DNA of 41,483 nt from a virus (taxonomy: Duplodnaviria > Heunggongvirae > Uroviricota > Caudoviricetes). The notes beneath the pieces were generated by a model. That model saw only the letters and a list, made by a program, of their open reading frames with translations. It was not told where the DNA came from and did no database searches. The stretch covers positions 1 to 41,483 of IMG/VR virus record IMGVR_UViG_2565956725_000003; one strand, 5' to 3'. Made by a program: the position numbers and the translations under genes. Positions 6,177-32,181 of the stretch are shown here, piece by piece. Numbering within the stretch: the stretch's first letter is position 1; each line of letters starts with the position of its first letter.

Positions 6177-6193
6177 ATTACCTTTCGGGTAAT
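6177..6193. promoter_or_regulatory. operator-like 17-bp palindrome ATTACC-N5-GGTAAT (copy 1)
   Basis: ATTACCTTTCGGGTAAT, perfect 6+6 inverted repeat, in the divergent region between the tailspike start and the SOS-box ORF. Confidence 0.6.
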
Positions 6194-6229
6194 TTGCAAA
6201 ACGTGCTGGATAGCAAACAAATTATTTGA

Positions 6230-6249
6230 TACTGTATAAATATACAGTT
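6230..6249 (+). promoter_or_regulatory. LexA (SOS) box inside a sigma70-like promoter
   Basis: TACTGTATAAATATACAGTT matches the CTGT-N8-ACAG consensus; sits between TTGATA (6226-6231) and TATTAC (6249-6254), 20 nt upstream of the ORF at 6269. Confidence 0.8.
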
Positions 6250-6268
6250 ATTACATGGAGAAGATAAG

Positions 6269-6526
6269 ATGCAGCAGTATCACTATCCACTGGAAGACGG
6301 ATTTACCGAAAGGATTCACACGCCGGGAGGCGTCAGGTCACTGGTGGAGGGATCGCACTTGATGAAATTACTCCGGGATCTCGATAAGGATGGATTTAAT
6401 GTCGATGGCCCACTTGCCGAACTGACTGCACTGATTAACTACGTCACCAGCTCACAGATGTCTATGCAGGATCTGCAAACACATCTCGACTATTGTGCCG
6501 AACAATTACGAAAGCAAACCAGATAA
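6269..6526 (+). CDS. small SOS-controlled protein, paralogue of the Bro protein C-terminal domain (candidate antirepressor)
   Basis: 85 aa, RBS GGAG; aligns with the last ~65 aa of the 6840..7532 product (shared IH-P-GV, LM-LL, DG-V-G, AELT, QTH-Y). Confidence 0.7.
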   Translation: MQQYHYPLEDGFTERIHTPGGVRSLVEGSHLMKLLRDLDKDGFNVDGPLAELTALINYVTSSQMSMQDLQTHLDYCAEQLRKQTR

Positions 6527-6556
6527 GGTTTGCAATTACCAAGTGGAGTGCTTATA

Positions 6557-6573
6557 TTTACCTTTGCGGTAAA
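6557..6573. promoter_or_regulatory. operator-like palindrome (copy 2) nested in a larger inverted repeat
   Basis: TTTACCTTTGCGGTAAA, flanked symmetrically by GGAGTGC (6545-6551) and GCACTCC (6582-6588). Confidence 0.55.
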
Positions 6574-6665
6574 TTTACATCGCACTCCTCTTGTGCCATA
6601 GTAATCGGGCACTGGCAAAATCCAGTGCCGGGATTGGTCTCCCGGATTACTACAGAGGCACATAT

Positions 6666-6686
6666 GCCGCATAAGCGGTTTTTTTA
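6666..6686 (+). terminator. weak terminator-like hairpin plus T-tract
   Basis: CCGC-ATAA-GCGG followed by TTTTTTT; short stem. Confidence 0.3.
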
Positions 6687-6839
6687 TGTGTAAAGCGCAC
6701 CTATTCTATGGTGGGCTGTGTGGGGGCACCGAAAGGTGCGCCGGGTTCCTTTGTAGCCGGTAAGACCAACTCTGCACAGTTCACCACCATCTGATTGGTC
6801 TCAGCGGTGGTGATTAACCTAACTACAAAGGTGATCGCC

Positions 6840-7532
6840 ATGAATACCAAACCTTCCATCTTTTCCTTTGAGTCATCCTGCCAGATCCGTATGTTCATGA
6901 TTGACGGAGAACCTTGGTTTGTCACCAAAGATGTGTGCAATGCTTTGAATATTGATGTTACACAAGCGAGAAAACTTGATAAAAAAGGCTGGAACAAAAA
7001 GGGGCTGTATTCAATACAGACCCCTGGTGGAATACAAGAACTATCCATCGTTTCAGAATCAGGTCTCTACATCCTTATTCTGCGTTGCAAAGAGGCAATG
7101 ACAGAGGGAACGAGAGCATTCAGATTTCTTGAATGGGTTACAGGTGAGGTTCTTCCTCAGATCCGCCGCACCGGAAGTTACATTAAAAACTCGCTCCCGC
7201 AGGAAGAACGCATAAAGATGGTTGCCGACCAGGTAGCCAACGCCACGGCGTCAGCAGTAATGCAGGCGATGAAGATAGAGAACAAAACCTACAGTGCCCC
7301 GCTGAAGCCCGGCTACCGCAGCCTGATTCACTCGCCGTCTGGTGTTCTCGGCCTGACGGAGAACTCACTGCTGATGAATCTGCTGAACCAGTTACAGGAA
7401 GACGGGCACGACGTATCGGGCGCGGCGGCGGAACTGACCACCATGTTCTGCTACATCGTCGGTGTGAGTAAATGCCTGCGTGATATCCAGACCCACGCGG
7501 AATACATCAACGACAAGGCAGGGGTCTTCTGA
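6840..7532 (+). CDS. Bro-N domain protein (antirepressor-like)
   Basis: N-terminal Bro-N signature (FSFESSCQIRMFMIDGEPWFVTKDVCNALNI ... GLYILILRC ... FLEWVTGEVLPQIRRTGSY); start at ATG 6840 with RBS AAAGGTGA. Confidence 0.85.
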   Translation: MNTKPSIFSFESSCQIRMFMIDGEPWFVTKDVCNALNIDVTQARKLDKKGWNKKGLYSIQTPGGIQELSIVSESGLYILILRCKEAMTEGTRAFRFLEWVTGEVLPQIRRTGSYIKNSLPQEERIKMVADQVANATASAVMQAMKIENKTYSAPLKPGYRSLIHSPSGVLGLTENSLLMNLLNQLQEDGHDVSGAAAELTTMFCYIVGVSKCLRDIQTHAEYINDKAGVF

Positions 7533-7541
7533 CAGAACGGC

Positions 7542-7568
7542 GGCACAGGGATGTGCCTTTAAATAATT
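7542..7568 (+). terminator. terminator-like hairpin after the Bro gene
   Basis: GGCACA-GGGA-TGTGCC followed by TTTAAATAATT. Confidence 0.4.
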
Positions 7569-7597
7569 CTGTACAGATTGCAGGTGAATAGCGTACT

Positions 7598-7614
7598 ATT
7601 ACCCCAAAGGTAAG
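7598..7614. promoter_or_regulatory. operator-like palindrome (copy 3)
   Basis: ATTACCCCAAAGGTAAG upstream of the two-gene cassette; further GTAAC-N13-GTTACC half-sites at 7626-7650. Confidence 0.55.
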
Positions 7615-7730
7615 AAAGTTGATTTGTAACATTTTAGTTTGTAGTTACCGTGATGGTTTTGCTGCAGAAAGTTAACTAGTCAAAATCACACCGTATGTAA
7701 GTCACGTCTGTTCCCGTATGGGAGGATGAT

Positions 7731-7949
7731 ATGTTTAAATTTGATATGCAACTCAACCAAAACTATGCCTCTTTTTACCATCCAGAAACTGGTAAAGCTG
7801 TTTTCGTTGACTCTTTCGATAATGAAGAATTTGATATCAGAATTGGGACCCTACGCCAAAGTAAGCATGTTGCTACTGTACGTGCATCCAATGATGATGA
7901 ATTAAATCAAAAAATAAGTGAGGCGACCTCCCGTTATCTATGTCTATAA
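7731..7949 (+). CDS. hypothetical protein, first gene of an AT-rich two-gene cassette
   Basis: 72 aa; strong RBS GGGAGGA; no recognisable domain. Confidence 0.6.
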   Translation: MFKFDMQLNQNYASFYHPETGKAVFVDSFDNEEFDIRIGTLRQSKHVATVRASNDDELNQKISEATSRYLCL

Positions 7950-8317
7950 CAGAACAACAACTCATTGATCTTGAGGATGAGATTAACGAGATCTTGCAAG
8001 AAGATGCGGCAAGAATTCACTTTTCATTTCACGCAGCATATGAACGCCTGAACGACGAGAGGAACAAACCGCCAATTACTCTTGCTGAGCTTGAAGATGT
8101 GTTTAAATCGTTTATATCTGCACATCTGCAGACTGTTTTGGATTTTGCTGAAGGTACAACTTTCACCATAAAGTGCAACAAAAGCGCCCTTCATTTTCCT
8201 TGCGCCATTGTACACGAAAGAGAGTTTGGGAAAACGTGGGTTATCCAAAACGTCATTACAGCCATGAGGAAAGTGGGATTCAAGTCTAAAGATTCTATTA
8301 TCCTCGAAGTTAATTAA
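7940..8317 (+). CDS. hypothetical acidic protein, second gene of the cassette
   Basis: 125 aa; start overlaps the upstream stop by 10 nt; followed by a terminator; no recognisable domain. Confidence 0.6.
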   Translation: MSITEQQLIDLEDEINEILQEDAARIHFSFHAAYERLNDERNKPPITLAELEDVFKSFISAHLQTVLDFAEGTTFTIKCNKSALHFPCAIVHEREFGKTWVIQNVITAMRKVGFKSKDSIILEVN

Positions 8318-8339
8318 GCCCGCACTGAGGGCTTTTTTA
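8317..8339 (+). terminator. rho-independent terminator
   Basis: AGCCC-GCACTGA-GGGCT followed by TTTTTT directly after the 125-aa gene stop. Confidence 0.7.
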
Positions 8340-8410
8340 TGGACGAAACAAAAGTCAGTGCTACACTCATTGACGCCACATTGAGGTGGCTTATAGATGG
8401 AAATTTCACA

Positions 8411-8572
8411 ATGAAAAAAGCATTTGCTGCACTGTTCGTTTTGTTGTCTCTGGTAGCTTCAACTCAGGCCTTTGCCGGTCGTTGTCAGCACGACAGCGAC
8501 ACTGCTGCTGACGGCTCCCGCTGCGGTGGGCGTTCTGCGGATTCCCGCCCGGGTGGCGGTGGCATTCGTTAA
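8411..8572 (+). CDS. small secreted Gly-rich two-cysteine peptide
   Basis: 53 aa from internal ATG: signal peptide MKKAFAALFVLLSLVASTQAFA then a 31-aa mature peptide with two Cys. ATG at 8339 rejected (abuts terminator, no RBS). Confidence 0.45.
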   Translation: MKKAFAALFVLLSLVASTQAFAGRCQHDSDTAADGSRCGGRSADSRPGGGGIR

Positions 8573-8594
8573 AAACAAGGCCGCGAAAGCGGCC
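8571..8594 (-). terminator. terminator for the minus-strand late operon, possibly bidirectional
   Basis: GGCCGC-GAAA-GCGGCC hairpin; on the minus strand it is followed by TTGTTTTT. Confidence 0.6.
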
Positions 8595-8603
8595 TGTGAC
8601 ATG

Positions 8604-8984
8604 TCACGCAACGCAATTATTACCGCGCCATGTAACATTTTTAATAATCTTATCAGCACCAAACTCAACGTAAACAGAGCAACTGAAATGGAGTGTATAA
8701 CCGCCATCAGTTGTTGCGTATGTGTTTGAATATATAGTATTACCAATTAGATTAGACGTAGTATTATACGTTGTGGTTTGTGGTACGTTATAACTACCAG
8801 AGCTTGAGTAAACATACACTCTGTTTCCATCTGGAGATGTAAGCTCTCCCTGAGGATACCCCCACTGCTGAACCATTGCGTCTATACTCTGCCCGCGCCA
8901 CGTAAGCATATTTCTTTCAAACTGTGCAGCTGACTGGCATCCAACGAGAAGCATAAATCCAAAAATCAAAAATACTTTTCTCAT
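8604..8984 (-). CDS. prophage lipoprotein (moron, possible superinfection exclusion)
   Basis: 126 aa from ATG 8984 with RBS AGGGG; signal peptide MRKVFLIFGFMLLVGC (lipobox LVGC); Thr/Asn/Tyr-rich mature part. Confidence 0.6.
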   Translation of the reverse strand: MRKVFLIFGFMLLVGCQSAAQFERNMLTWRGQSIDAMVQQWGYPQGELTSPDGNRVYVYSSSGSYNVPQTTTYNTTSNLIGNTIYSNTYATTDGGYTLHFSCSVYVEFGADKIIKNVTWRGNNCVA

Positions 8985-9069
8985 AATTACCCCTATCATG
9001 GAAAAACAGCACCAATCCACAAATTAACTAGTTATTTTATTATTCTTCCGAACAATACAATTCCGAATA

Positions 9070-9192
9070 CTACAAAGCCGAACCATGCCGCTGCACGCAA
9101 CAGAGATTCCAATTGAAACCCATTTTTATCAAAATGTATGAATAGCATAAAAACGCTGCACATATTAGTACAATAAAAGTTATTTGAACCAT
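9070..9192 (-). CDS. small single-pass membrane peptide (not in ORF track)
   Basis: 41-42 aa MMVQITFIVLICAAFLCYSYILIKMGFNWNLCCVQRHGSAL; strong RBS AAGGAG 5 nt upstream; immediately after the stop of the 824-aa gene. Confidence 0.45.
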   Translation of the reverse strand: MVQITFIVLICAAFLCYSYILIKMGFNWNLCCVQRHGSAL

Positions 9193-9203
9193 CATATCTC
9201 CTT

Positions 9204-11678: not shown

Positions 11679-11683
11679 TTAAT

Positions 11684-15996: not shown

Positions 15997-16541
15997 TATA
16001 ATCCTCCGGGTAATCTGGTTCCTGCTGCTGCCCCGATTGGCGCAGGAGTGCTTTGAGTAAACGGACTCCACGTCCCACCAAACATCTGGTACGCACCGTA
16101 TGCCTTCAGAGGCGCAGTGAGCAATGTTGTTGCTGCTCCCACATTCCCCTGTTTACGGGCTGAACTGGCTTCTGCTTTATAGTTGGCAGCCTGAACCTGA
16201 TAACCGTAAGCCTCGCGTTGCGCGTTATTCACCGTCGTCAGCGAATCAAGAGCGCCAAACTGGGCAGTGTCGCCAAATATATCCAGCGCGTTACCTGTTG
16301 ATAAATCAGCGCCGGTAGCCCCCATTGTCGCCGCCTGTGTACCAAGCCGCTGTCGGGTCTCTCTGCGTCGTTGCTCAGCTTCAGCGTTACCTCTGTTTAT
16401 TGCATCATTTGCCTGAGCTGTGGCTATATCTGCGTTCGCTTCTGCAACCTTCGAGGCATACTTTCCCTGTTGGTACTGGGTGTATGCCTGAATGCCACTC
16501 ATGGCGAGCATTGCGCCACCAGCAATAACCGGATCGCACAT
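15996..16541 (-). CDS. internal virion protein (T7 gp14-like by position)
   Basis: 181 aa, Ala/Gln-rich; translationally coupled on both sides. Confidence 0.5.
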   Translation of the reverse strand: MCDPVIAGGAMLAMSGIQAYTQYQQGKYASKVAEANADIATAQANDAINRGNAEAEQRRRETRQRLGTQAATMGATGADLSTGNALDIFGDTAQFGALDSLTTVNNAQREAYGYQVQAANYKAEASSARKQGNVGAATTLLTAPLKAYGAYQMFGGTWSPFTQSTPAPIGAAAGTRLPGGL

Positions 16542-19476: not shown

Positions 19477-20084
19477 CAGGACAACCTCGCAATGGTAAAC
19501 TCATCAACCGGTGGCTGTGGTTCCTGTGATTCATTCTGGCTATGCGAGCCAGCACTAAGAATCACGCGATTGTACATATTGAGGGCAAACGTACCGAGGT
19601 CTGCATTCCCAGTCAGCGCCATGTTAATAGCTGCCGCAAGACGCCAGGCCAACGCCTCCATAAAAATGGCATCAAACATGTTCACATCTGTAACGCGAGA
19701 GACATACTTGAGCCATGCCTGCGGCTGGTCTGTGTAGATCAACTTTCCTGTTCCGTTGGTGTCTGCACCAACTTCGTACTGAACGCGCATTGCTGCTGTT
19801 GGATTGCGTACACCAGGAAGCATAATTTCAGTAATGCGCAGACAATCGGACGGGTACTGATACGCATATTCCCAGTCAGGCGGTGGATTGCTCGTATCTG
19901 CAAGCGCCACGCGTTTGGTAGCAAAGTTCCAGTCAAAATCAGAAAGCACAGCATCACGGCAGGCCTCAAAGTGCAGCGAACATTCCCCCGCTTCCTTGCT
20001 GGCTTCCGTCAGGCTGTTAATGCTGCGGCTATTGCCAATATTGGACAGCGCACGATTACAGATCTCTACTACAGAGGCCATCAC
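19476..20084 (-). CDS. tail tubular protein A-like (adaptor/gatekeeper)
   Basis: 202 aa; N-terminal pattern resembles T7 gp11 as recalled. Confidence 0.55.
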   Translation of the reverse strand: MMASVVEICNRALSNIGNSRSINSLTEASKEAGECSLHFEACRDAVLSDFDWNFATKRVALADTSNPPPDWEYAYQYPSDCLRITEIMLPGVRNPTAAMRVQYEVGADTNGTGKLIYTDQPQAWLKYVSRVTDVNMFDAIFMEALAWRLAAAINMALTGNADLGTFALNMYNRVILSAGSHSQNESQEPQPPVDEFTIARLS

Positions 20085-20454: not shown

Positions 20455-20799
20455 TTACACGCCCAGTTCTTTACGCTTATCTGCGATCTTCTCGCGGAGC
20501 GTTTCGGCTTTAGCGTTATGGTGTGGCTTCTCGTTAAAGAGCAATTCGTACTCTTCACGGAGCTTATCCAGTTCACCATCATCTGACACATCATTGATGA
20601 TTTTGGTGCTGGTTGCTGCCATTGACACCTTTCCTGCAACTTTTGCTTTTGCCTGTCTGGCTGCATCGTTAACAGGTTCCAGTGCGCTACCAGGCTCACC
20701 TTCGTATTCGATTTCTGCCCCCTCCGGCCACAGAGTGTTATGGATATGAGAGAGGCGCAGAACGAGGTATCTTGGTTTCTCACCTGACATCGATATCAC
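20455..20799 (-). CDS. virion structural protein, hypothetical
   Basis: 114 aa in the structural operon. Confidence 0.5.
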   Translation of the reverse strand: MISMSGEKPRYLVLRLSHIHNTLWPEGAEIEYEGEPGSALEPVNDAARQAKAKVAGKVSMAATSTKIINDVSDDGELDKLREEYELLFNEKPHHNAKAETLREKIADKRKELGV

Positions 20800-25182: not shown

Positions 25183-25270
25183 ATCAATGACTCCGTACGC
25201 AATTAAATTATTACCAATTTAACCACATATGATTTATTTATCGTAGGTAGTTGACATTTAACGCACAAAT

Positions 25271-25287
25271 TATTACCTTTCAGGTAA
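25271..25287. promoter_or_regulatory. operator-like palindrome (copy 4)
   Basis: ATTACCTTTCAGGTAAC, 15 bp downstream of a TTGACA hexamer (25250-25255), upstream of the tRNA and of the portal operon. Confidence 0.55.
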
Positions 25288-25609
25288 CCAAAGAGTTCAT
25301 TCCGGTTACTAACCTGACTGGCTTGTCGTTAAATTGAACAGGTGTAGTGAGCTTTTATTTTGAGCAGTACGGCGTATGGCACATGCGCCGATAGCGGTCT
25401 GGATACGTTTAAGGGGCACCCTCCCTTGCTCGGGCAAACGAACCAGGTAGCCGGAATGTGCAAGTCGAGCGGTTTTATTCCGCGCACGGGGATTCACCAT
25501 CCCGGCGATTCGGTGTGACGCCTCGGAAGAGACGAGGGTACAACGATGAGAGCATTTATGGAGCCGCGACAAAGTGTGGCGCCTTAACAGGCTAAGTGCT
25601 CTCAGCGTT

Positions 25610-25686
25610 GTGGCATTAGCTCAGTTGGACAGAGCAACCGCCTTCTAAGCGGTTGGTCGCAGGTTCGAATCCTGCATGCCACGCCA
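25610..25686 (+). tRNA. tRNA-Arg (anticodon UCU), phage-encoded argU-like
   Basis: Hand-folded cloverleaf with 7-bp acceptor stem, D and T arms, anticodon loop CTTCTAA, discriminator G and encoded CCA; core resembles argU. Confidence 0.9.
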
Positions 25687-25729
25687 GAATCACGCCTAAG
25701 GACCGTGATGCCAGAAGTTCCAGGTGCTT

Positions 25730-25771
25730 GGCGGTGATGGTTTCCCTTGAGGGACTATCACCGCCCTTTTT
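25730..25771 (+). terminator. rho-independent terminator after the tRNA
   Basis: 9-bp stem GGCGGTGAT/ATCACCGCC followed by CTTTTT. Confidence 0.6.
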
Positions 25772-25849
25772 ACAGCAGGACGCCATTGCGATGACTTCAT
25801 GCTGTAAACCCGTACAGCCACGGAAGGCATAACTCATTGCTTCCAGTTC

Positions 25850-25873
25850 GCCCGGTTCGCCGGGCATTTTTTT
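25850..25873 (+). terminator. second terminator/attenuator hairpin
   Basis: GCCCGG-TTCG-CCGGGC followed by ATTTTTTT, just upstream of the RBS of the 25890 ORF. Confidence 0.55.
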
Positions 25874-25889: not shown

Positions 25890-26261
25890 ATGAGTGACAA
25901 AGACATTGAATCTGAAATTCAGGCTAAAGGTTTAGCCGCGCCGCGCGTTACGCCAGACCATATCGAGAGCATTATTGCTCAGGAGGCATATTTCACAGCA
26001 GAAGATGGTGCCTTTGGCGTAGCCATAAAAGCGAAACATACTGGCGGAGAGGTAAACTACCAGCCGCACGAATCACTTTCTCTGCTGACGTTCTGCGTCC
26101 TGGTGCTGCGCAACGGCTTCACCGTCACCGGAGAGAGCGCCTGTGCAAGCCCGGAAAACTTTGATGCAGAAATTGGTCGGAAGATTGCCCGACAGAATGC
26201 TGTAAACAAAATCTGGATGCTTGAAGGTTACTTGCTGAAGCAGAAGTTAAGCGAGCAATAA
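25890..26261 (+). CDS. hypothetical protein (moron with the tRNA)
   Basis: 123 aa, RBS AAGGTGAG; opposite strand to the flanking packaging and head genes; followed by a terminator. Confidence 0.6.
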   Translation: MSDKDIESEIQAKGLAAPRVTPDHIESIIAQEAYFTAEDGAFGVAIKAKHTGGEVNYQPHESLSLLTFCVLVLRNGFTVTGESACASPENFDAEIGRKIARQNAVNKIWMLEGYLLKQKLSEQ

Positions 26262-26275
26262 CACCGTGACATATC

Positions 26276-26310
26276 ACAAACAGCCAGCCTATGAGCTGGC
26301 TTTGTTTTAT
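26276..26310. terminator. bidirectional terminator between the moron and terminase large subunit
   Basis: AGCCAGC-CTATGA-GCTGGCT with a T-tract on the + side and an A-rich tract on the other. Confidence 0.6.
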
Positions 26311-26351
26311 CCTCATCAGAGGATATCAACAACATTATCCCCTCAAGCGGA

Positions 26352-27827
26352 TTAAGCATAGGGATCGTAATCTGTGATGGCCTTGCCTTGCTGGTTCTGC
26401 TGCCCGGGAATTCGCAGACGCTTAGACACAGGGAACGCAAACGTCAGCAGTAGCGCATCGCCTTTACCCGGTGAACGCCCAAGCCGCTCCTTGATATCTT
26501 CCTTCGGTTCGATAACGATTTTACCGTCCACTCGAACTTTGTACTCTGCCGCCGACAGGTCGTCTGCTGTTTCCTGGTCATCCAGCATGCCGCCAAGCCT
26601 CAGCCATGTCTTGCATGAATTGAACATCTCCCCACGCTTGTTGAGCATCTGCGGGTCAGTAGACGCGCCACCGAACGGAACAAGTTGCCATGTACGACCC
26701 CAGCCGTCACCGATTGACTTCAGACCGGTTCCGTAACCGAAGTCGATGAACACCGCGTCAGCCTGATACTGGTCTTCAAAGTCAGCGATACGCTTCGCCA
26801 TAATCAGATCGTCAGTGGTCTTGTTGCCAGTCCATAGCACCTTACTATGCAACCCCTGCCGCAGGTATATCACCGCGTCATCAACGCCTGAATATGCCGG
26901 GTCAACACCGATTATCACCGGAGCATGTGCCACCTGCGCAGCGGTTACCACCCGTTTCATTGCCTCATCAGTAAGACCGGTAGGGATAAACTGCAATTCA
27001 GATGCATCAGGGAATATGCCGCGCACACGGATTTTAACGAAGTCGCTGTCTTCCCCGTAGTCATCAACCCATTTCTGCAACTGCTGTTTGTTAGTACCTT
27101 CCACCGTCCGGCTGTCAATCTGCGCAGTTTTCCAGCGGTGTTTGTATTTGCGGAAACATTCGCGAAAACGCCCGGTATTACGTGTAGGGTTTCCGAACGC
27201 CACCCAGATAATCTCAGTGTCTTCGTCCGTAAGCGCACCCTCAGCAACTTCCCACACCAGATCCGCAATGTTCGACGCTTCATCGAATACCACGATGATG
27301 CGTTTGCGCTCGTTGTGTAGTCCGGCGAATGCCTCAGTGTTGTGCTCAGACCAGGGGATTGCGTCAGCTCGCCACCGCTTGTCGTGCCCAGGATCATTGC
27401 TGTACATCGCGGTAGCGGTACAGGTAAACCAGTCTTTCGTGATAGCAAGGTTCGACCACTTGATAATTTCCGGCCAGGTCTTCGTTCGTAGCTGGTTGTC
27501 GGTGTTGGCGGTCACCACGACCTTACAATCCTCGCAAGTGGACATGCCCCAGTTGATCAACATTGAGATGAATGCTGATTTACCAATACCGTGGCCCGAA
27601 GCACGTGCCAGCATAAGCGGCTGATAGCGCGTCTCTGGATTCTGCAGGTGATCACGTATCTCTCGGAACGCATCAGCCTGCCACTGACGTGGGCCGGTGG
27701 CATGTGCCAGTTCAGTCCCCTCTTCCCCCCAAGGGAACGCATAGAGGACATAGCCAAGCGGATCGTGAGTGAACCCTGCAATATCCTCGATCAACTGCTC
27801 TTCAGGAGATAACGCTGTATCTGTCAC
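26352..27827 (-). CDS. terminase large subunit
   Basis: 491 aa immediately downstream of the small subunit with overlapping stop/start. Confidence 0.85.
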   Translation of the reverse strand: MTDTALSPEEQLIEDIAGFTHDPLGYVLYAFPWGEEGTELAHATGPRQWQADAFREIRDHLQNPETRYQPLMLARASGHGIGKSAFISMLINWGMSTCEDCKVVVTANTDNQLRTKTWPEIIKWSNLAITKDWFTCTATAMYSNDPGHDKRWRADAIPWSEHNTEAFAGLHNERKRIIVVFDEASNIADLVWEVAEGALTDEDTEIIWVAFGNPTRNTGRFRECFRKYKHRWKTAQIDSRTVEGTNKQQLQKWVDDYGEDSDFVKIRVRGIFPDASELQFIPTGLTDEAMKRVVTAAQVAHAPVIIGVDPAYSGVDDAVIYLRQGLHSKVLWTGNKTTDDLIMAKRIADFEDQYQADAVFIDFGYGTGLKSIGDGWGRTWQLVPFGGASTDPQMLNKRGEMFNSCKTWLRLGGMLDDQETADDLSAAEYKVRVDGKIVIEPKEDIKERLGRSPGKGDALLLTFAFPVSKRLRIPGQQNQQGKAITDYDPYA

Positions 27828-28420
27828 TGATTACCATCCTGACGTTCTTTGAGTCGCTTCCTGGCTGCTGCTATGCGATCAGCAATTGTCACATTCACAT
27901 TAACATCCAGACGTTCTTTGAACGCGTTGACATCAACATGCTTACCAATCAGCTCAAGGTTCTTCACCTTGTCAGGCCATTTAATTTTTTTGAGGATTGT
28001 CTCTATCGAATCCTCGTTCATGTTCATGATGGTCGATGACAGATCAAAGCCACTAAGCGTAGTGCGCCAGATTTTCGGCCACTCGCGGATTGGCTTAAGG
28101 CTCCCATCGTCGTTGAGGATGTCGATCACGTCCATCTGGTCGATCTCCACCAGGCGCATGAGAACGTAATCAGCACTGACGCGCATTCGTTTGTTGCGCT
28201 CTTCCATCAGCTCGGCAATCCGTTTTTGAATGCGTTCATCGCGCATCATGACACTGGCTTTAACTGCCGCTGTATTTGGGGAGAATCCTGCGTTAATCGC
28301 TGCCTGAGTCTGGTTTTCAGGCGTTTTGATGTATGACTGGCAATAAGCCTCCTGCATTGCTGTTAGTGGCTTAAATTGCGTTGATTTGCGTTTATAGGTT
28401 TTAGGTTCAGCAGGCATCAT
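27824..28420 (-). CDS. terminase small subunit
   Basis: About 198 aa from ATG 28420/28417; helix-turn-helix-like KPLTAMQEAYCQSYIKTP...TQAAINAGFS; the ORF-track N-terminal extension is rejected. Confidence 0.75.
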   Translation of the reverse strand: MMPAEPKTYKRKSTQFKPLTAMQEAYCQSYIKTPENQTQAAINAGFSPNTAAVKASVMMRDERIQKRIAELMEERNKRMRVSADYVLMRLVEIDQMDVIDILNDDGSLKPIREWPKIWRTTLSGFDLSSTIMNMNEDSIETILKKIKWPDKVKNLELIGKHVDVNAFKERLDVNVNVTIADRIAAARKRLKERQDGNQ

Positions 28421-28436
28421 AACCACCGTGGTAATA

Positions 28437-28453
28437 GTTACCGTTGTGGTAAT
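28437..28453. promoter_or_regulatory. operator-like palindrome (copy 5) just upstream of the terminase small subunit
   Basis: GTTACCGTTGTGGTAAT within a GGTAATAGT direct repeat, 17 bp from the start codon. Confidence 0.55.
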
Positions 28454-28494
28454 AGTAACATGCAAAATAAAGCCGCCATAGTTGGCGGCAGTAT

Positions 28495-28728
28495 TCAAAG
28501 TCCATCAAATTCATCGTAAAAACTCTCGTCAAGATACCCTTCCCATTTACCGCGAATGAAAATTACACCCTCGCCGCAATGGTGATGACTGTCGATAACT
28601 ATATCCCTCCTGGCGCAACCATACTTATGCATGAGAAATTTAACCTCTTTCGGAAAATTTGCTGAGTTATCTCTCATATCTTCAAGGTCGTAGCGTATTT
28701 TTGGCATAACACCTTCGTGACATGTCAC
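28495..28728 (-). CDS. hypothetical protein
   Basis: 77 aa, GTG start overlapping the upstream stop. Confidence 0.45.
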   Translation of the reverse strand: MTCHEGVMPKIRYDLEDMRDNSANFPKEVKFLMHKYGCARRDIVIDSHHHCGEGVIFIRGKWEGYLDESFYDEFDGL

Positions 28729-29063
28729 ACTATTAATTTCGTTTCATGCCAGCCTTTAGTCACCCAGCATTGCGAGTCACCATTACACGGGCATGAATTA
28801 ACTGGAACTCTCTCGCCGCACTTACCGCAACGTTTTCTGCTGATCGATTTTATACGCCCGCGCACGCGTGCATCATCCTGGCGGATCAGTAACGCTATAT
28901 ACTCACCAAATTCGTAAGGCGCACGCCCGGGGCGACGCGTGGCACAGTTACTCTCCAGCATTTCAATTTCCTGAGCATCAAGCACAATTTCCAGCTTACG
29001 CACACCAGATGCAGCTTGTCTGGCTCTCTGAGCGGCTTTGCGCTCTGCTGCTGATTTAGCCAT
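28725..29063 (-). CDS. hypothetical protein with basic N-terminus and C-terminal Cys cluster
   Basis: 112 aa, RBS AGGAAA; CGKCG-x9-CPC motif. Confidence 0.5.
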
Positions 29064-29400
29064 TCTGATTTTCCTGCATCATGAGAAATACAATCATGGC
29101 GGCGCGGAGAGGTCTGGTATCAAATATTGGTCTTACGCCTTTTGCATCAACACACCATTCAGTTAACTGGTCTAAGATAGAAATCCTGTGTTTCTCAATA
29201 ATCGGCCATGAGGCGCTAGGATCATTGCAGTAGTCAGGTAAAGGGTTTAATGGCTCAAAAGTTGTATCAGTATTTCCGTAATACCATTTGTTGGTGTTAT
29301 TCCCTGATGTTTCCGGTTTACATGCCCAAAGGCCTTTAAAAATTATGTCTCCTACCATTCTGTTAATTTCAAAATCACTTAACTGTGAATAGTCCATCAC
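29056..29400 (-). CDS. hypothetical phage protein
   Basis: 114 aa, ATGA overlap with the upstream gene. Confidence 0.5.
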
Positions 29401-30017
29401 TTCACCTCCTGCGGCGGTTCTGGTAGAGGCATCCAGTGGGTTACTTTCGATGCCGGTTCTTCCACATCGTCAGTAACTGCCCACCATTTGTTTTTCGACC
29501 AATCGTAATACCCTTCGAAGGTATCGCACTCAGTCCAGCCGTAAGACTTCCCCCAACACCAAACATACTGTTTATCGTTCGGCATTCGCTCACTACAGCT
29601 TATCCAACCATCCGGAGTTACCGGAGAGTTGCCCGACAGCTCGTTCAACTTATAAGTCTGGCTTACAGGTTCGGCACCATTAAGCATGGAGGCGCGGCAG
29701 GCGTTCCAGCCTTCATCAAAGCCGACTATGCCATTATTTAAAGACGGACGAGCATCTGGCACCATCGGCACTGGCTTGGCTATATATAGCGGCTGAACAT
29801 ACCAGCCCTTTGATAACCAACTGTCAGCAATGTTTTTACTCCTCGTTATTGCCGGAATACCTAAGCCATTTTCTGAATGCAGCCATGCCACCGGCTCCTC
29901 TTCTAGCGATGCCAGAGCAATTTCATAAGCCCGGCGCTCAATATTGTCTCGCACGTCCAGGCTGCCTATGCGTTCTTTGATTTCTTTAATCATTTCTTTG
30001 TCGGTTAAAGTTGTCAT
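29397..30017 (-). CDS. DUF551-like phage protein
   Basis: 206 aa; Trp-rich C-terminus (WISCSERMP ... [11 protein letters not shown]) as recalled for DUF551. Confidence 0.5.
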
Positions 30018-30020
30018 GTG

Positions 30021-30308
30021 TTAGTCCTCATCCACTTCAACGCCATCTTTCAGCGTGATGCCGTGCCAATCATCAGCCCAACTGGTTAGCCCTGGCGCAT
30101 CAATGCTAGGCATATAAACGCTTGCAGTGTGGTAGCCCTTATCGTTATCAATGCTGGCAACGTGCTCGCCGTTGTATGCGCTCAGCGTGTCCAGGACGCT
30201 ATAAAACTTTCCTCCGGCTGCCCTGAAATCCTTTACAGCCTTCACAAGGCGATTCCACGCTTTTTCCTGTTCTGGCGTCAGGTCGATTAATTCCTGCAAA
30301 GTTGCCAT
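30021..30308 (-). CDS. hypothetical protein
   Basis: 95 aa from ATG 30308 with RBS AAGGAGGG. Confidence 0.5.
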   Translation of the reverse strand: MATLQELIDLTPEQEKAWNRLVKAVKDFRAAGGKFYSVLDTLSAYNGEHVASIDNDKGYHTASVYMPSIDAPGLTSWADDWHGITLKDGVEVDED

Positions 30309-30309
30309 A

Positions 30310-31038
30310 TCACCCTCCTTTGATGCCAATGCCAGCAAGCCAGTTTCTTATGCCGATATATTCAGCGTTCCTGAAACCGCCATTTACATATATAAATGGC
30401 AAGCGAAGATTGTGACCATTGGCTGCCAGGTAGTCTTTACAACCCTGTTCGGTGAAACAGCAGGTAACGAATTCATCAATATCTTTCACAGCAACGCGCC
30501 GCCATTTTTCTGGTGGTTCCCGAAAGTTTTCATGAAGTAGTTCGAGACGACGACTTTGGCGTTTATTGGCTTCATTGCCATCTTCATCAACCCAGACAAT
30601 CCTGTCATAGTCATAATCAGCATCAACAACGATTTCGCGCTTTTGATACACACAAAACATAGGGTCTGACGTTATTCGATTATCCTGTGTTCGAATATTT
30701 TCACCGATGATGCCAAACGAATCTGGTGCAGATTTTGTCTTCAACTCTTCGATACGTTTGCTTTGAGCTTCCAGTTCATCAAGAAGCGCAAGCATGGTAG
30801 CCGGACTGGCTGCGGCGATGAATTCAGCATTTGCCTGCTGTTCCATTTGGAAATCTTCATCGAAACCGCTTTCAGGATGCGCTCCTTCAATTCTGCAAAT
30901 GGGAATATATCCAGCAGCCTCGCGATGAATTAGCGCATCATCACCATCAAATCGGCCCTCTCCATATTCGAGCGACCATACACCACACGTTGCTTTCTCT
31001 GCCTTTTCACGCAGTGCCTGATAGTCAATCTTGCTCAC
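30310..31038 (-). CDS. Ea22-like early protein
   Basis: 243 aa from GTG 31038 (RBS AGGAGG, GTGA overlap); N-terminus SKIDYQALREKAEKAT as recalled for Ea22-like proteins. Confidence 0.5.
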   Translation of the reverse strand: MSKIDYQALREKAEKATCGVWSLEYGEGRFDGDDALIHREAAGYIPICRIEGAHPESGFDEDFQMEQQANAEFIAAASPATMLALLDELEAQSKRIEELKTKSAPDSFGIIGENIRTQDNRITSDPMFCVYQKREIVVDADYDYDRIVWVDEDGNEANKRQSRRLELLHENFREPPEKWRRVAVKDIDEFVTCCFTEQGCKDYLAANGHNLRLPFIYVNGGFRNAEYIGIRNWLAGIGIKGG

Positions 31039-31694
31039 TGGTTTCCTCCTTTGCGAAGCTGTTCCGCACAATCCAGCAGGGCGTCCGTCGCTTCTTTCAC
31101 CGTAACGATGTCGCCATCGTCCAGCCCGACAACCGTCGCGTTCTTAACGAACACCGAGCAAAGGTCATTAAACGCCTGCGCCCGCACTTCAGCCAGGCAT
31201 TTGCGAAACTCGGAAACGTACTGTTCGACGCTCATTCCCCAGCTAAGTGGACATTCATTGAATGTTTCGCCTTCGTGCTCTTCATCAGGTAGCTCTTTGG
31301 TAAAGAACTCACGTTCAATGGCGTGGAGTGTGTCAGCAAAACGACGTAAGTTACTCAAACCTGTCGTAATGGAGAATTCAGGAGCATCACATCCGACGCC
31401 CATCTGCTGATAAACGGCGGTTTTGAAGGCCTTCAGCCCCGCATTCTCCGCCGCCAACGCCGAAAACTTCTCGTGTGCCAACTTAACAGCCGCATCAGCC
31501 TGCTTAATTGACTCAATCGCTTTCTGCTGGTCTTCGGCCAGCGCATTAGCACGCACCAGTTGCACTTCCAGTTGCGTTGCCAAATCGCTGATCAGCTTTG
31601 CCACACTGCGCATATCAACGGCACCACATTCTGCTTTCAGTTCCGAAGCCATCTCATGCCCGGCGGCAACTAACCCTTTGATATTACTTTCCAT
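31035..31694 (-). CDS. coiled-coil early protein (Ea22-like?)
   Basis: 219 aa, RBS GAGGG, coiled-coil N-terminal half. Confidence 0.45.
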   Translation of the reverse strand: MESNIKGLVAAGHEMASELKAECGAVDMRSVAKLISDLATQLEVQLVRANALAEDQQKAIESIKQADAAVKLAHEKFSALAAENAGLKAFKTAVYQQMGVGCDAPEFSITTGLSNLRRFADTLHAIEREFFTKELPDEEHEGETFNECPLSWGMSVEQYVSEFRKCLAEVRAQAFNDLCSVFVKNATVVGLDDGDIVTVKEATDALLDCAEQLRKGGNQ

Positions 31695-31755
31695 CTTTAC
31701 CCTCGCTTATCCACATAACTTATTGATTACATTGATAACTAAAAAGATCGTCGAT

Positions 31756-32100
31756 TCAGAACTCTTCGATGTTCCAGCCACCACCTGTTTTCTTTGGTTT
31801 AACCGTTACCCCGATGATTCGGAACGGATACTGATCTGCGGCGACTTTGGTTTTCACCCTGGCGTCGTCGGTCCAGAAACCTTTCACTTCGTGCAGTTCC
31901 ATCTCTCCGGTGGCGAGCATCACAGCGAAATCTGGCGTATAGAACGTGTTGTCAGCTAACCGCAGCTTGATACCCTCGAATCGATACCAGGCGATTTCCC
32001 CTGCACGTTTACGCAGCTCAAGGTGCTGGCAATACGCAGATTCAGTTTTGTTCATCTGGCCTGTTTTGAGTCGACCAAGAGCCTGTATCTGTTTTCTCAT
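31756..32100 (-). CDS. putative PD-(D/E)XK nuclease-fold protein
   Basis: 114 aa; TPDF...ELHEVKG resembles a PD-x(n)-E-x-K motif; start codon and RBS overlap palindrome copy 6. Confidence 0.4.
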   Translation of the reverse strand: MRKQIQALGRLKTGQMNKTESAYCQHLELRKRAGEIAWYRFEGIKLRLADNTFYTPDFAVMLATGEMELHEVKGFWTDDARVKTKVAADQYPFRIIGVTVKPKKTGGGWNIEEF

Positions 32101-32102
32101 GA

Positions 32103-32119
32103 TTTACCTCTGAGGTAAT
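32103..32119. promoter_or_regulatory. operator-like palindrome (copy 6)
   Basis: TTTACCTCTGAGGTAAT overlapping the RBS/start of the 31756..32100 gene. Confidence 0.5.
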
Positions 32120-32164
32120 TAAAAACCACATAAGACATGAAATCAATAGAGTTTATAATATTTT

Positions 32165-32181
32165 GTTACCTAACAGGTAAT
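32165..32181. promoter_or_regulatory. operator-like palindrome (copy 7)
   Basis: GTTACCTAACAGGTAAT, 62 bp from copy 6, in the gap downstream of the P-like gene. Confidence 0.55.

What the first reader, a model, noticed from the sequence alone, without database searches (positions are those of the whole stretch)
6177..32181. One 17-bp palindrome (ATTACC-N5-GGTAAT) recurs at operon boundaries all over the prophage, not only in the immunity region
Besides the immunity and early-promoter regions, near-perfect copies sit at 6177-6193 (tailspike/SOS-ORF divergent region), 6557-6573 (upstream of the Bro gene), 7598-7614 (before the two-gene cassette), 25271-25287 (before the tRNA and the portal operon), 28437-28453 (17 bp before terS) and 32103-32119 plus 32165-32181 (around the start of the 114-aa gene). 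Ten copies of a 6+6 inverted repeat in 41 kb, all intergenic, cannot be chance. It implies one regulator, most simply the prophage repressor, holding early, accessory and late units under common control, like the stoperator arrangement of mycobacteriophage L5 but with symmetric sites. A late-gene activator binding the same sites is an alternative.
Basis: seen in the sequence. Interest (0 to 1): 0.8.

Follow-up and report, generated by a model that had tools for sequence, protein, structure and literature searches.

The report
Known repressor operators of ε15-like prophage
The repeated 17-bp palindrome is real and far beyond chance, but it is the operator of the prophage repressor (Rep) of ε15/phiV10-type phages, and the ε15 GenBank record already annotates the same sites at the same genome positions, so this is a rediscovery.

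Summary
Observation confirmed. ATTACC-N5-GGTAAT occurs 12 times at ≤2 mismatches (1.3 expected). Its core TTACC-N5-GGTAA is the most over-represented hyphenated palindrome in the window (10 perfect copies; next best 4). A weight matrix trained only on relatives gives 11-12 hits, all in the 7.6% of the window that is intergenic (p≈1e-13).

The window is a Uetakevirus prophage (phiV10/TL-2011b/ε15 group). GenBank AY150271.2 (ε15) already annotates this motif as 'protein_bind: repressor' before terS, before the portal operon, in the ant/tailspike divergent region, at OL and after the replication genes. These are the same positions as here.

The 194-aa repressor is a homologue of SPC32H Rep (PDB 5D50), a tetramer inactivated by a small LexA-controlled antirepressor, which is also present here (6269-6526).

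Added here: eight genomes keep the sites syntenic, with invariant half-sites and free spacers. Five promoters share one register, with the -10 hexamer ending at operator base 2. Four of the regulatory regions lie directly after a terminator. Partner spacings of 62, 62, 62 and 50 bp are invariant in seven genomes, which fits bridging by one tetramer.

The repressor reading is supported. The L5 stoperator analogy is not. Novelty: already known. Direct binding at the dispersed sites could not be verified in the papers available.

The parts
34523..35107 (+). rep: the 194-aa prophage repressor, a homologue of SPC32H Rep. It has an N-terminal HTH DNA-binding domain and a C-terminal HTH_3-like tetramerisation / Ant-binding domain.
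   Evidence: PDB 5D50 match at E 4e-42 over residues 1-190. Pfam finds HTH_3 only and no S24 peptidase domain. 99.5% identical to the phiV10/ZX5 repressor. The block NLVNRW..G.K..G...AR.IE is invariant across all Rep types.
34404..34468 (.). OR: three operators between rep and the cro-like gene. 34452-34468 is strong, 34435-34451 has a degenerate right half, and 34404-34420 lies between the -35 and -10 of the leftward cro promoter.
   Evidence: Alignment A7 shows all three conserved in 7 genomes. A promoter-like TTGTTA-17-TATTAT lies on the minus strand at 34422-34394.
35164..35242 (+). OL/PL module: distal operator 35164-35180, -35 TTGACA 35199-35204, -10 AATTAT 35222-35227, proximal operator 35226-35242. 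The operators are 62 bp apart and the rep terminator (35128-35147) precedes them.
   Evidence: Alignment A4 and the 62-bp spacing in all 7 genomes. Homologous to the annotated epsilon15 repressor sites at 32554 and 32616.
32103..32181 (-). Second PL-like module after the replication genes: distal operator 32181-32165, -35 TTGATT 32146-32141, -10 TTTAAT 32123-32118, proximal operator 32119-32103. The proximal operator contains the SD of the DUF1064 gene (ATG at 32100). The operators are 62 bp apart and a terminator precedes them.
   Evidence: Alignment A3 has invariant terminator, operators and CTATTGA. Spacing is 62 bp in 8 genomes. Epsilon15 site 35906 is annotated as a repressor site. The phiV10 terminator is annotated at 35038-35057.
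28419..28453 (-). Two adjacent operators, 18 bp centre to centre (28453-28437 and 28435-28419). They lie between a terminator (28489-28472) and the terS ATG (28417). An extended -10 (TGtTACTAT, 28460-28452) overlaps the first operator and the terS SD lies in the second.
   Evidence: Alignment A2 is invariant from the terminator to the ATG. Epsilon15 site 12-27 is annotated as a repressor site.
25272..25288 (.). Single full operator in the divergent region between the gp3/portal late operon (minus strand) and the tRNA-Arg / gene-66-like unit (plus strand). An invariant TTGACA (25251-25256, plus strand) places the operator over the -10 position of a rightward promoter.
   Evidence: Alignment A1: the operator is invariant while the upstream flank is unalignable. 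Epsilon15 site 2931-2947 is annotated as a repressor site.
25210..25215 (-). Perfect half-site (GGTAAT on the late strand), exactly 62 bp from the 25272 operator. It lies in the conserved leader/promoter of the gp3-portal operon, next to the motif TCATATGTGGTT (25232-25221).
   Evidence: The 62-bp offset is invariant in 7 genomes. Alignment A1.
6177..6193 (.). Exact palindrome in the ant/tailspike divergent region. It is centred about -57 from the putative LexA-controlled ant promoter and about -70 from the putative tailspike promoter.
   Evidence: Alignment A5. Epsilon15 site 19895-19911 is annotated as a repressor site.
6122..6132 (-). Perfect half-site (ATTACC 6127-6132, plus strand; GGTAAT on the late strand) exactly 50 bp from the 6177 operator. 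It overlaps the putative tailspike -10, TAGAAT (6127 to 6122, minus strand).
   Evidence: The 50-bp offset is invariant in 7 genomes. The -10 reads TAGAAT or TACAAT in six of the seven genomes in A5.
6230..6526 (+). LexA box (6230-6249, TACTGTATAAATATACAGTT) and the ant gene (6269-6526). Ant is the small antirepressor that inactivates Rep.
   Evidence: One LexA-box match against 0.00 expected. Ant is 88% identical to the SPC32H Ant annotated in KC911856.
6530..6573 (+). Promoter TTGCAA-17-TATATT (6530-6558), with operator 6557-6573 starting at the last two bases of the -10 and a perfect half-site at 6535-6540. It drives isrK (6609-6685), C4 antisense RNA (6704-6791) and the Bro-N gene (6795-7532).
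   Evidence: phiV10 has the same site at 20496.
7570..7614 (+). Putative promoter TGTACA-18-TACTAT (7570-7599), with operator 7598-7614 in the same register. It lies upstream of the accessory cassette 7731-8572.
   Evidence: The register was read directly from the sequence. The cassette proteins match PHROGs of unknown function or membrane-associated morons.
34067..34083 (.). Weak operator-like site (ATTACCCTTAAGGTGCG, 9.3 bits) just downstream of the cro-gene terminator (34116-34097, minus strand).
   Evidence: Counterparts in phiV10 (33111) and Tyrion (35365).
34138..34368 (-). Cro-like 76-aa HTH protein. It may also use the same operators during lytic growth.
   Evidence: PHROG 35 'transcriptional repressor', E 6e-13. 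Weak HTH similarity to the Rep N-terminal domain, with a different recognition helix.

Best explanation
The 17-bp palindromes are operators of the prophage repressor Rep (34523-35107). Rep is an SPC32H-type, non-self-cleaving, tetrameric HTH repressor.

The sites are not confined to OL and OR. They mark the 5' end of almost every transcription unit:
- OR and OL;
- a PL-like promoter after the replication genes;
- terS;
- the gp3/portal late operon together with the tRNA unit;
- the ant/tailspike divergent region;
- the isrK-C4-Bro antirepressor module;
- an accessory cassette.

Four of these regions (OL, the post-replication module, terS and the weak site after cro) follow an intrinsic terminator directly.

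Inferred mechanism. At five promoters the operator begins at the last two bases of the -10 hexamer, so bound Rep would occlude RNA polymerase. Each Rep tetramer carries two DNA-reading heads. These would engage two sites at once: adjacent sites 17-18 bp apart (OR, terS), or a full site plus a full or half site 62 or 50 bp away, wrapping the promoter between them. The prophage would then be silenced unit by unit through direct repression, not only through an early-gene cascade. After DNA damage LexA releases ant, Ant breaks up the Rep tetramer, and all units would be derepressed together.

Shown here: the motif, its enrichment, its synteny and the site geometry. Inferred: binding at the dispersed sites, occlusion and bridging.
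For: 1. Enrichment and strictly intergenic placement, with near-absence from lambda and from 50 kb of E. coli K-12.

2. The same motif builds OL and OR around rep.

3. GenBank AY150271.2 annotates seven 'protein_bind: repressor' features with this exact motif at the homologous epsilon15 positions.

4. Rep is homologous to SPC32H Rep, PDB 5D50. Ant is 88% identical to SPC32H Ant and is preceded by a LexA box. According to PMC9638917, SPC32H Rep binds palindromic sites as a tetramer whose DNA-binding pairs come from different dimers, and Ant breaks the tetramer.

5. The sites are syntenic in 8 genomes from E. coli, Salmonella, Enterobacter and Klebsiella. Half-site columns are 95-100% identical, spacers 63-83% and flanks 49-77%. 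This is a protein-contact pattern.

6. Rep proteins are only 42-45% identical between groups, yet they keep the N-terminal block NLVNRW..G.K..G...AR.IE invariant. That matches the invariant half-site.

7. Five promoters share one register between the -10 hexamer and the operator. Terminators lie directly upstream of four of the regulatory regions.

8. Partner spacings of 62, 62, 62 and 50 bp are invariant in 7 genomes.

9. Over-expressing the 99.5%-identical ZX5 repressor abolished free phage and cut holin and endolysin transcripts by more than 99.9% (PMC9782041).
Against: - No direct binding data (EMSA, footprint, ChIP) for the dispersed sites could be read. The primary papers (Kropinski 2007; Kim & Ryu 2013; Kim et al. 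2016) are not held, so the epsilon15 features may be predictions only.
- No relative with a changed operator specificity was found, so repressor/operator co-variation could not be tested.
- At the portal and tailspike operons the full site lies about 46-70 bp upstream of the putative core promoter. Repression there depends on an inferred bridge to a half-site.
- All promoters are consensus-level predictions, and the promoter scan as a whole is not enriched over shuffles.
- This window has no recognisable operator upstream of the lysis cassette, although relatives have one.
- The ZX5 over-expression result does not separate direct from indirect repression.
Confidence: 0.8

Rival explanations
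1. The dispersed sites are used mainly by another phage regulator that reads the same or overlapping sequence. Candidates are the Cro-like 76-aa protein (34138-34368) and the conserved 'transcriptional regulator' just upstream of terS (28725-29063). Such a protein would act as a lytic-phase modulator or late-gene activator. Rep would matter only at OL and OR.
For: At the two late operons the full site lies upstream of the putative core promoter (about -46 to -70), a position typical of activators. Cro proteins generally share operators with their repressor, which is established knowledge from lambda and P22. The Cro-like protein is an HTH protein. A second conserved motif, YCATATGTGGTT, accompanies the late promoters and could be an activator site.
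Against: Five sites overlap the -10/+1, which is a repressive geometry. The motif is identical to the OL and OR operators. The Cro-like recognition helix differs from Rep's. YCATATGTGGTT is explained well enough at the tailspike promoter as a -35 plus spacer, and it is not enriched overall in the window or in epsilon15. The epsilon15 annotators assigned the sites to the repressor. This rival is not exclusive of the main explanation.
Confidence: 0.1
2. Stoperator-type control as in mycobacteriophage L5: repressor bound within transcribed regions blocks elongating RNA polymerase instead of blocking initiation.
For: The sites are many and dispersed and lie at unit boundaries. Several sit between a terminator and the next gene, where they could also stop read-through.
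Against: The sites are symmetric, so they cannot be orientation-dependent. They coincide with promoter-like -35/-10 pairs in a fixed register. They follow intrinsic terminators that already stop read-through. There are about 12-16 sites, all at unit starts and none inside operons.
Confidence: 0.05
3. The palindromes act at the RNA level, as hairpins for termination, processing or translational masking of the SD sequences they contain. Alternatively they are targets of a host factor or a modification system, not of a phage repressor.
For: Two proximal sites contain the SD of the downstream gene, at terS and at the DUF1064 gene. The epsilon15 record annotates RNase III sites near some of these regions.
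Against: The predicted hairpins are weak, -1 to -6 kcal/mol. Half-sites are conserved in sequence, not merely in complementarity, and most single mismatches are uncompensated. Sites work in both orientations relative to transcription, and some lie upstream of putative start points. A methylation or restriction motif would not be confined to the 7.6% of the window that is intergenic. The perfect motif is absent from 50 kb of host DNA.
Confidence: 0.03

Closest known systems
Repressor-binding sites of Salmonella phage epsilon15 (GenBank AY150271.2; Kropinski et al. 2007, Virology 369:234, not readable here)
   Same: The 17-bp motif ATTACC-N5-GGTAAT is identical. The positions are homologous: before terS, before gp3/portal, in the gp19(ant)/tailspike divergent region, at OL (with the 62-bp pair) and after the replication genes. 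Genus and repressor family are the same.
   Different: The Rep protein is only 42% identical. Spacers here are mixed in sequence, not A/T-rich. OL has two sites, not three. This prophage has extra sites at the isrK-C4-Bro module and at an accessory cassette, and it lacks the site upstream of the lysis cassette. The record does not annotate the second sites of the pairs or the half-site partners.
Rep/Ant lysis-lysogeny switch of Salmonella phage SPC32H (PDB 5D50, 5D4Z; Kim & Ryu 2013; Kim et al. 2016, known here through PMC9638917 and PMC9986798)
   Same: Homologous Rep (E 4e-42) and Ant (88% identity), a LexA box at ant, and the same operator motif and site map in the SPC32H genome. A tetrameric Rep with two DNA-reading pairs fits the paired sites.
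   Different: I could not check which operators were tested experimentally. The cited summary says one tetramer suffices for repression, but it says nothing about the dispersed sites.
Phage P1 C1 repressor with operators dispersed over the genome (established knowledge, not tested here)
   Same: It works alike: one immunity repressor directly controls many scattered operons, including an immI-type c4-RNA/antirepressor operon. Here isrK and C4 RNA lie upstream of a Bro-N gene behind a Rep operator.
   Different: The proteins are unrelated. P1 operators are asymmetric 17-mers bound by monomers, and P1 late genes need the activator Lpa. There is no sequence or family relationship.
Mycobacteriophage L5 gp71 stoperators (established knowledge)
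   Same: Many copies of one repressor site spread through the prophage.
   Different: L5 sites are asymmetric 13-mers, orientation-dependent, inside transcribed regions, and they block elongation. Here the sites are symmetric, overlap promoters and follow terminators.
Lambda CI at OL/OR with cooperative looping (established knowledge)
   Same: Divergent rep/cro layout, multipartite OL and OR, 17-bp symmetric operators, and cooperative multi-site binding.
   Different: Lambda CI acts only at OL and OR, is RecA-cleavable (S24 domain) and controls late genes indirectly through N and Q. Rep has no S24 domain, is inactivated by an antirepressor, and has sites at late and accessory units.

Membership tests
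Uetakevirus (epsilon15/SPC32H-type) Rep operators | 17-bp hyphenated palindrome ATTACC-N5-GGTAAT | tested here: met
   2 exact matches and 12 at <=2 mismatches. The core is the top palindrome in the window and in phiV10, epsilon15, SPC32H and BUCT711.
Uetakevirus (epsilon15/SPC32H-type) Rep operators | Sites flank a gene for an SPC32H-type Rep (N-terminal HTH DNA-binding domain, C-terminal HTH_3-like tetramerisation domain, no peptidase domain) | tested here: met
   PDB 5D50 at E 4e-42 over residues 1-190. Pfam finds HTH_3 only. OR and OL lie on either side of the gene.
Uetakevirus (epsilon15/SPC32H-type) Rep operators | Dispersed sites at the positions annotated in epsilon15 (terS, gp3/portal, ant/tailspike, OL, post-replication) | tested here: met
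   All five classes are present and align with the epsilon15 features.
Uetakevirus (epsilon15/SPC32H-type) Rep operators | Small LexA-controlled antirepressor Ant encoded next to the tailspike gene | tested here: met
   88% identity to SPC32H Ant, with a LexA box at 6230-6249.
Uetakevirus (epsilon15/SPC32H-type) Rep operators | Physical binding of Rep to the sites | not testable with these tools
   Needs EMSA, footprinting or ChIP. The primary papers were not readable.
L5-type stoperators | Asymmetric site with one orientation relative to transcription | tested here: not met
   The sites are symmetric, with both halves conserved at 95-100%.
L5-type stoperators | Located within transcribed operons, away from promoters, acting on elongation | tested here: not met
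   All strong sites lie at unit starts. Five overlap a -10 hexamer in one register and four regions follow terminators.
Lambda-type CI (LexA-like, self-cleaving) operator systems | Repressor carries an S24 peptidase / RecA-dependent cleavage domain | tested here: not met
   Pfam reports only HTH families for Rep. The homologue SPC32H Rep is inactivated by Ant.
P1 C1 dispersed operators | C1-family repressor and asymmetric ATTGCTCTAATAAATTT-type operators | tested here: not met
   The motif is a symmetric palindrome and Rep is an HTH_3/5D50-type protein. The resemblance is functional only.
Late-gene activator sites | Sites restricted to late promoters, upstream of the core promoter | tested here: not met
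   The same motif forms OL and OR, and it overlaps the -10/+1 at early and accessory promoters. Only the portal and tailspike sites lie upstream.

The most novel reading that the evidence does not exclude
Enterobacterial Uetakeviruses may run without a classical early-to-late cascade. Every transcription unit, including the terminase, head-tail and tailspike operons, would be an insulated sigma-70 unit (terminator, then operator plus promoter) silenced directly by one tetrameric repressor. That repressor would bridge a full operator to a second full site or a half-site at a fixed 62- or 50-bp distance. This geometry is invariant across E. coli, Salmonella and Enterobacter phages whose Rep proteins share only about 42% identity. 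Ant-driven tetramer disassembly would then switch on the whole genome at once. Operator recognition would be shared across the genus, so immunity specificity would not lie in DNA recognition.
Probability: 0.35. Interest if true: 0.5.

Novelty: already known. Interest (0 to 1): 0.25.

Why it matters
The finding gives a correct regulatory map for a very common prophage type. The immunity region is present in 561 of 5,426 complete E. coli genomes, and phiV10/TL-2011b-type phages occur in O157 and O103 pathogens.

It also corrects an annotation: the long terS in the phiV10 and PAT1 records swallows a terminator and two operators.

It shows which accessory genes should be silent in the lysogen: the isrK-C4-Bro module and the 7731-8572 cassette.

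The conserved 62/50-bp site pairs are a ready-made test bed for how a tetrameric repressor with cross-dimer DNA-binding pairs wraps short promoter loops. The basic fact, however, that repressor operators are spread over ε15-like genomes, is already in the public annotation of ε15.

Tried and rejected
1. Primary literature. PMC2698709 / PMID 17825342 (ε15 genome), PMC3807360 (Kim & Ryu 2013) and PMC4983836 (Kim et al. 2016) are not held. Full-text searches found no accessible paper that describes the operators.

2. Repressor/operator co-variation. I looked for a relative with a different operator. Every enterobacterial Uetakevirus, including the Klebsiella group with 45%-identical Rep, uses the same half-site, so the test could not be made.

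3. Distant relative. BcepC6B, which has a cI-type repressor, shows no dispersed palindrome, only GC-rich chance ones. The architecture is therefore not demonstrably ancestral.

4. RNA-hairpin reading. Rejected, because the hairpins are weak and the conservation is in sequence, not in pairing.

5. The second motif YCATATGTGGTT as a separate regulator site. It is not enriched in the window or in ε15, although it is enriched in Tyrion. At the tailspike promoter it reads as a -35 plus spacer. Left open.

6. Lysis-cassette operator. I found none in this window at 3097-3316; the alignment with relatives is poor there.

7. Promoter scan. The generic scan is not enriched over shuffles, so individual promoter calls rest on conservation and on the shared register, not on the scan.

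8. Technical. Loci L004-L006 and L009 did not reach the Python sandbox, so they were analysed with the DNA search and DNA alignment instead.

Full report
**1. The observation**

The pattern ATTACC-N5-GGTAAT has 2 exact matches in the window against 0.01 expected. It has 12 matches at up to two mismatches against 1.34 expected, and none of 100 shuffles reached 12. The 5+5 core TTACC-N5-GGTAA has 13 matches at up to one mismatch against 0.73 expected.

I also counted every perfect 5-Nx-5 hyphenated palindrome (x = 0-12) without presupposing the motif. TTACC-N5-GGTAA comes first with 10 copies, and the next best has 4.

The seventh is off by one base: 25272-25288, not 25271-25287.

To avoid circularity I trained a 21-nt weight matrix only on 30 sites from ε15, SPC32H and Klebsiella phage BUCT711. 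It returns 11 window hits at ≥10 bits and 12 at ≥8 bits. All of them lie in the 7.6% of the window that is intergenic (binomial p 4e-14 to 5e-13). The same matrix gives 0-1 hits in λ and 0.2-1 in shuffled windows.

λ and a 50-kb stretch of E. coli K-12 contain no perfect core.

- a second operator at 28419-28435;
- OR sites at 34404-34420 and 34435-34451;
- a weak site at 34067-34083;
- three perfect half-sites at 6127, 6535 and 25210.

The match at 15998 lies in coding sequence, scores below 6 bits and is probably chance.

**2. What the window is, and what is already on record**

The window is a temperate podovirus prophage of the genus Uetakevirus. It is 97% identical over most of its length to phiV10, TL-2011b, phiv142-3 and ZX5, and more distantly related to ε15.

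The decisive result is the ε15 GenBank record, AY150271.2. It carries seven 'protein_bind' features with bound moiety 'repressor' and note 'lysogeny'. Extracting them gives ATTACC-N5-GGTAAT in every case. They sit:
- just before terS (12-27);
- before gp3/portal (2931-2947);
- in the gp19/tailspike divergent region (19895-19911);
- three at OL (32479, 32554, 32616);
- after the replication gene (35906-35922).

These are the homologues of window sites 28437, 25272, 6177, 35164/35226 and 32165. The dispersed repressor operators are therefore already annotated for the type phage of the group.

**3. The regulator**

The 194-aa protein at 34523-35107 matches the SPC32H repressor (PDB 5D50) at E 4e-42 over residues 1-190. 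Pfam sees only HTH families and no S24 peptidase domain.

Papers that summarise the SPC32H work describe Rep as follows. It binds palindromic DNA as a tetramer, the DNA-binding pairs come from different dimers, and a tetrameric antirepressor Ant splits the tetramer (PMC9638917). The C-terminal domain is a p53-like 'TetDloop' tetramerisation fold associated with DNA looping (PMC9986798).

The 85-aa ORF at 6269-6526 is 88% identical to the Ant gene annotated in SPC32H. A LexA box at 6230-6249 precedes it. From memory of Kim & Ryu 2013, which I could not read here, LexA controls ant and Rep is not cleaved.

In phage ZX5 the repressor is 99.5% identical to this one. Its over-expression abolished free phage and reduced holin and endolysin transcripts by more than 99.9% (PMC9782041). 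That agrees with the model but does not prove direct control.

**4. Anatomy in the window**

The sites group into nine regulatory regions.

(i) OR, 34404-34468: three sites between rep and the cro-like gene.

(ii) OL/PL: rep terminator at 35128-35147, distal operator at 35164, -35 TTGACA at 35199, a 17-nt spacer, -10 AATTAT ending at 35227, and proximal operator at 35226.

(iii) A paralogous module on the minus strand after the replication genes: terminator, distal operator 32181-32165, -35 TTGATT, a 17-nt spacer, -10 TTTAAT, and proximal operator 32119-32103. The proximal operator carries the SD of the DUF1064 gene.

(iv) terS: terminator 28489-28472, an extended -10 (TGtTACTAT), two abutting operators and the ATG at 28417.

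(v) 25272-25288, in the divergent region between the gp3/portal operon and the tRNA-Arg unit. An invariant TTGACA on the plus strand puts the operator over the -10 position of a rightward promoter.

(vi) 6177-6193, between ant and the tailspike gene.

(vii) 6557-6573, on the promoter TTGCAA-17-TATATT. Rfam shows that this promoter leads into isrK (6609-6685), then C4 antisense RNA (6704-6791), then the Bro-N gene.

(viii) 7598-7614, on TGTACA-18-TACTAT ahead of the 7731-8572 cassette.

(ix) A weak site at 34067-34083, after the cro terminator.

In five of these regions (PL, the post-replication promoter, terS, Bro and the cassette) the -10 hexamer ends exactly at operator base 2. This shared register is hard to explain unless the bound protein competes with RNA polymerase.

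**5. Comparative evidence**

The motif is the dominant palindrome in all the relatives examined, each with about 0.5 matches expected by chance:

| Phage | Host genus | Core matches at ≤1 mismatch |
|---|---|---|
| Tyrion | Enterobacter | 15 |
| PAT1 | Salmonella | 19 |
| BUCT554 | Enterobacter | 14 |
| SPC32H | Salmonella | 18 |
| BUCT711 | Klebsiella | 9 perfect cores |

phiV10 and ε15 have 8 and 11 perfect cores respectively. In every genome the sites occupy the same syntenic classes.

In alignments of seven genomes the half-site columns are 95-100% identical, the 5-nt spacers 63-83% and the remaining columns 49-77%. Upstream of the portal-operon operator the sequences cannot even be aligned, yet the operator is invariant.

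Partner distances are fixed in all seven genomes:
- 62 bp at OL;
- 62 bp at the post-replication module;
- 62 bp between the portal-operon operator and a GGTAAT half-site in the leader;
- 50 bp between the ant/tailspike operator and an ATTACC half-site. That half-site overlaps a well-conserved -10, which reads TAGAAT or TACAAT in six of the seven genomes, for the tailspike gene.

Rep proteins fall into groups only 42-45% identical to one another. They still keep the N-terminal block NLVNRW..G.K..G...AR.IE invariant, which matches the invariant half-site. Because no relative has a changed operator, I could not run a repressor/operator co-variation test.

**6. Mechanism**

The best-supported model is direct, unit-by-unit repression by Rep.

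Steps shown by sequence:
- the motif, its distribution and its conservation;
- its identity with OL and OR;
- its overlap with promoter-like elements;
- the upstream terminators;
- the fixed spacings.

Steps taken from the literature on the homologue: Rep is a tetramer with two DNA-reading pairs, and Ant disassembles it.

Steps inferred:
- Each tetramer occupies two sites. These are adjacent at OR and terS, 62 bp apart across the promoter at OL and the post-replication module, and full site plus half-site at the two late operons.
- Occupancy blocks initiation.
- Induction through LexA, then Ant, then Rep releases all units together.

Read-through is already stopped by terminators in front of four of the regulatory regions. 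The sites are therefore promoter operators, not elongation blocks.

**7. Rivals**

A second regulator may use the same sites, whether the Cro-like protein or the conserved regulator upstream of terS. This is not excluded, and for Cro it is even likely by analogy with other phages. At the portal and tailspike operons the upstream position of the full site would suit activation.

However, the motif is the OL/OR operator, and five sites are in a repressive register. The accompanying motif YCATATGTGGTT is not enriched in the window or in ε15, though it is enriched in Tyrion. At the tailspike promoter it reads as a -35 plus spacer.

RNA-hairpin, host-factor and modification-motif readings are weak.

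The L5 stoperator comparison fails on symmetry and on position.

**8. Comparison with known systems and novelty**

The element is a member of the ε15/SPC32H Rep-operator system. Every defining feature that can be tested by sequence is met.

Functionally it resembles the P1 C1 repressor with its dispersed operators, down to a c4-RNA/antirepressor module under repressor control. The proteins and the sites are unrelated, so this is a resemblance and not membership.

It differs from λ in three ways: it has sites at late and accessory units, the repressor is not self-cleaving, and it is inactivated by an antirepressor.

The phenomenon is already annotated in ε15, and the switch proteins have been solved structurally, so I rate it already known.

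This analysis adds:
- a genus-wide site map;
- the shared -10/operator register;
- the terminator-operator-promoter unit design;
- the invariant 62/50-bp full-site and half-site pairs;
- the two extra accessory-module operators;
- a corrected terS start.

**9. Limits**

All promoters are predictions, and the generic promoter scan is not enriched over shuffles. I saw no binding data for the dispersed sites. This window lacks the operator that relatives carry upstream of the lysis cassette. Here the lysis genes directly follow the tailspike gene on the same strand with no terminator detected, so they are probably co-transcribed.

Noticed in passing
window 6609-6791 (+), with promoter/operator 6530-6573 and the Bro-N gene 6795-7532: Rfam finds isrK (6609-6685, 74.7 bits) and C4 antisense RNA (6704-6791, 78.6 bits) between the Rep-operator promoter and the Bro-N gene. 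This is a P1 immI-like c4-RNA/antirepressor module. It is apparently a second antirepressor system placed under Rep control, alongside the LexA-controlled Ant.
   Followed up: partly
window 6149-6138, 25232-25221, 32135-32124 and degenerate 3158-3147 (all minus strand): A second conserved motif, YCATATGTGGTT, lies upstream of the tailspike, gp3/portal, post-replication and lysis units. At two of them it is followed after 5 nt by a Rep half-site (GTGGTT-N5-GGTAAT). In relatives the lysis copy is the perfect palindrome CCATATATGG. It may simply be a -35 plus spacer, or it may be a site for a late regulator.
   Followed up: partly
window 3097-3316: Relatives carry a weaker operator (TCACC-N5-GGTAA) upstream of the gp23/holin lysis cassette. 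This window has none. It also lacks the opposite-strand O-antigen-modification gene that separates the tailspike and lysis genes in relatives, so the lysis genes are probably co-transcribed with the tailspike gene.
   Followed up: partly
window 28417-28498 (minus strand); phiV10 L001:41-130; PAT1 L005:23156-23230: The phiV10 and PAT1 records annotate a long terS whose 5' end would contain a conserved intrinsic terminator and both operators. The ATG at 28417, with a GGTGG SD inside the proximal operator, matches the epsilon15, SPC32H and Tyrion starts.
   Followed up: yes
L001:26869, L002:26881, L003:26960, L004:28568, L005:10746 (outside the window, which ends at the int start codon at 41483): The five relatives listed carry a conserved operator-like site TTACCYTAAAGGTAT; in phiV10 and epsilon15 it lies about 58 bp upstream of the integrase start, near attP. 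BUCT554 has a differently degenerate site at the same locus (L006:19769). This suggests Rep also touches int expression or the att region.
   Followed up: no
window 6269-6526 versus 34523-35107; alignment A8: Ant is 88% identical between this prophage and SPC32H, whereas Rep, including the C-terminal domain that Ant is reported to bind, is only about 42% identical. This is unexpected for a specific protein-protein pair.
   Followed up: no
Rep alignment A8; genomes L001-L007: Rep proteins from E. coli, Salmonella, Enterobacter and Klebsiella phages (42-100% identity) keep one invariant recognition-helix block and one operator half-site. Operators should therefore be cross-recognised across the genus, and immunity specificity, if there is any, must lie elsewhere.
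   Followed up: partly
window 34000-35300: This immunity region (cro-like gene, OR, rep, OL) is found at >=80% coverage in 555 of 5,426 complete E. coli genomes, mostly at 95-99% identity. The module is very common. No complete E. coli genome matched above 98.2%.
   Followed up: partly
window 25616-25867 (-) versus tRNA-Arg 25610-25686 (+): The ORF corresponding to phiV10 gene p04 overlaps the tRNA-Arg(TCT) gene on the opposite strand and is probably not a real gene. Two strong plus-strand terminators (25730-25765 and 25850-25865) follow the tRNA.
   Followed up: no
L009 (E. coli K-12 1,000,001-1,050,000): The host control has 5 one-mismatch matches to the 5+5 core against 1.0 expected (0 of 100 shuffles reach 5), but no perfect match. 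This is unexplained and probably noise.
   Followed up: no
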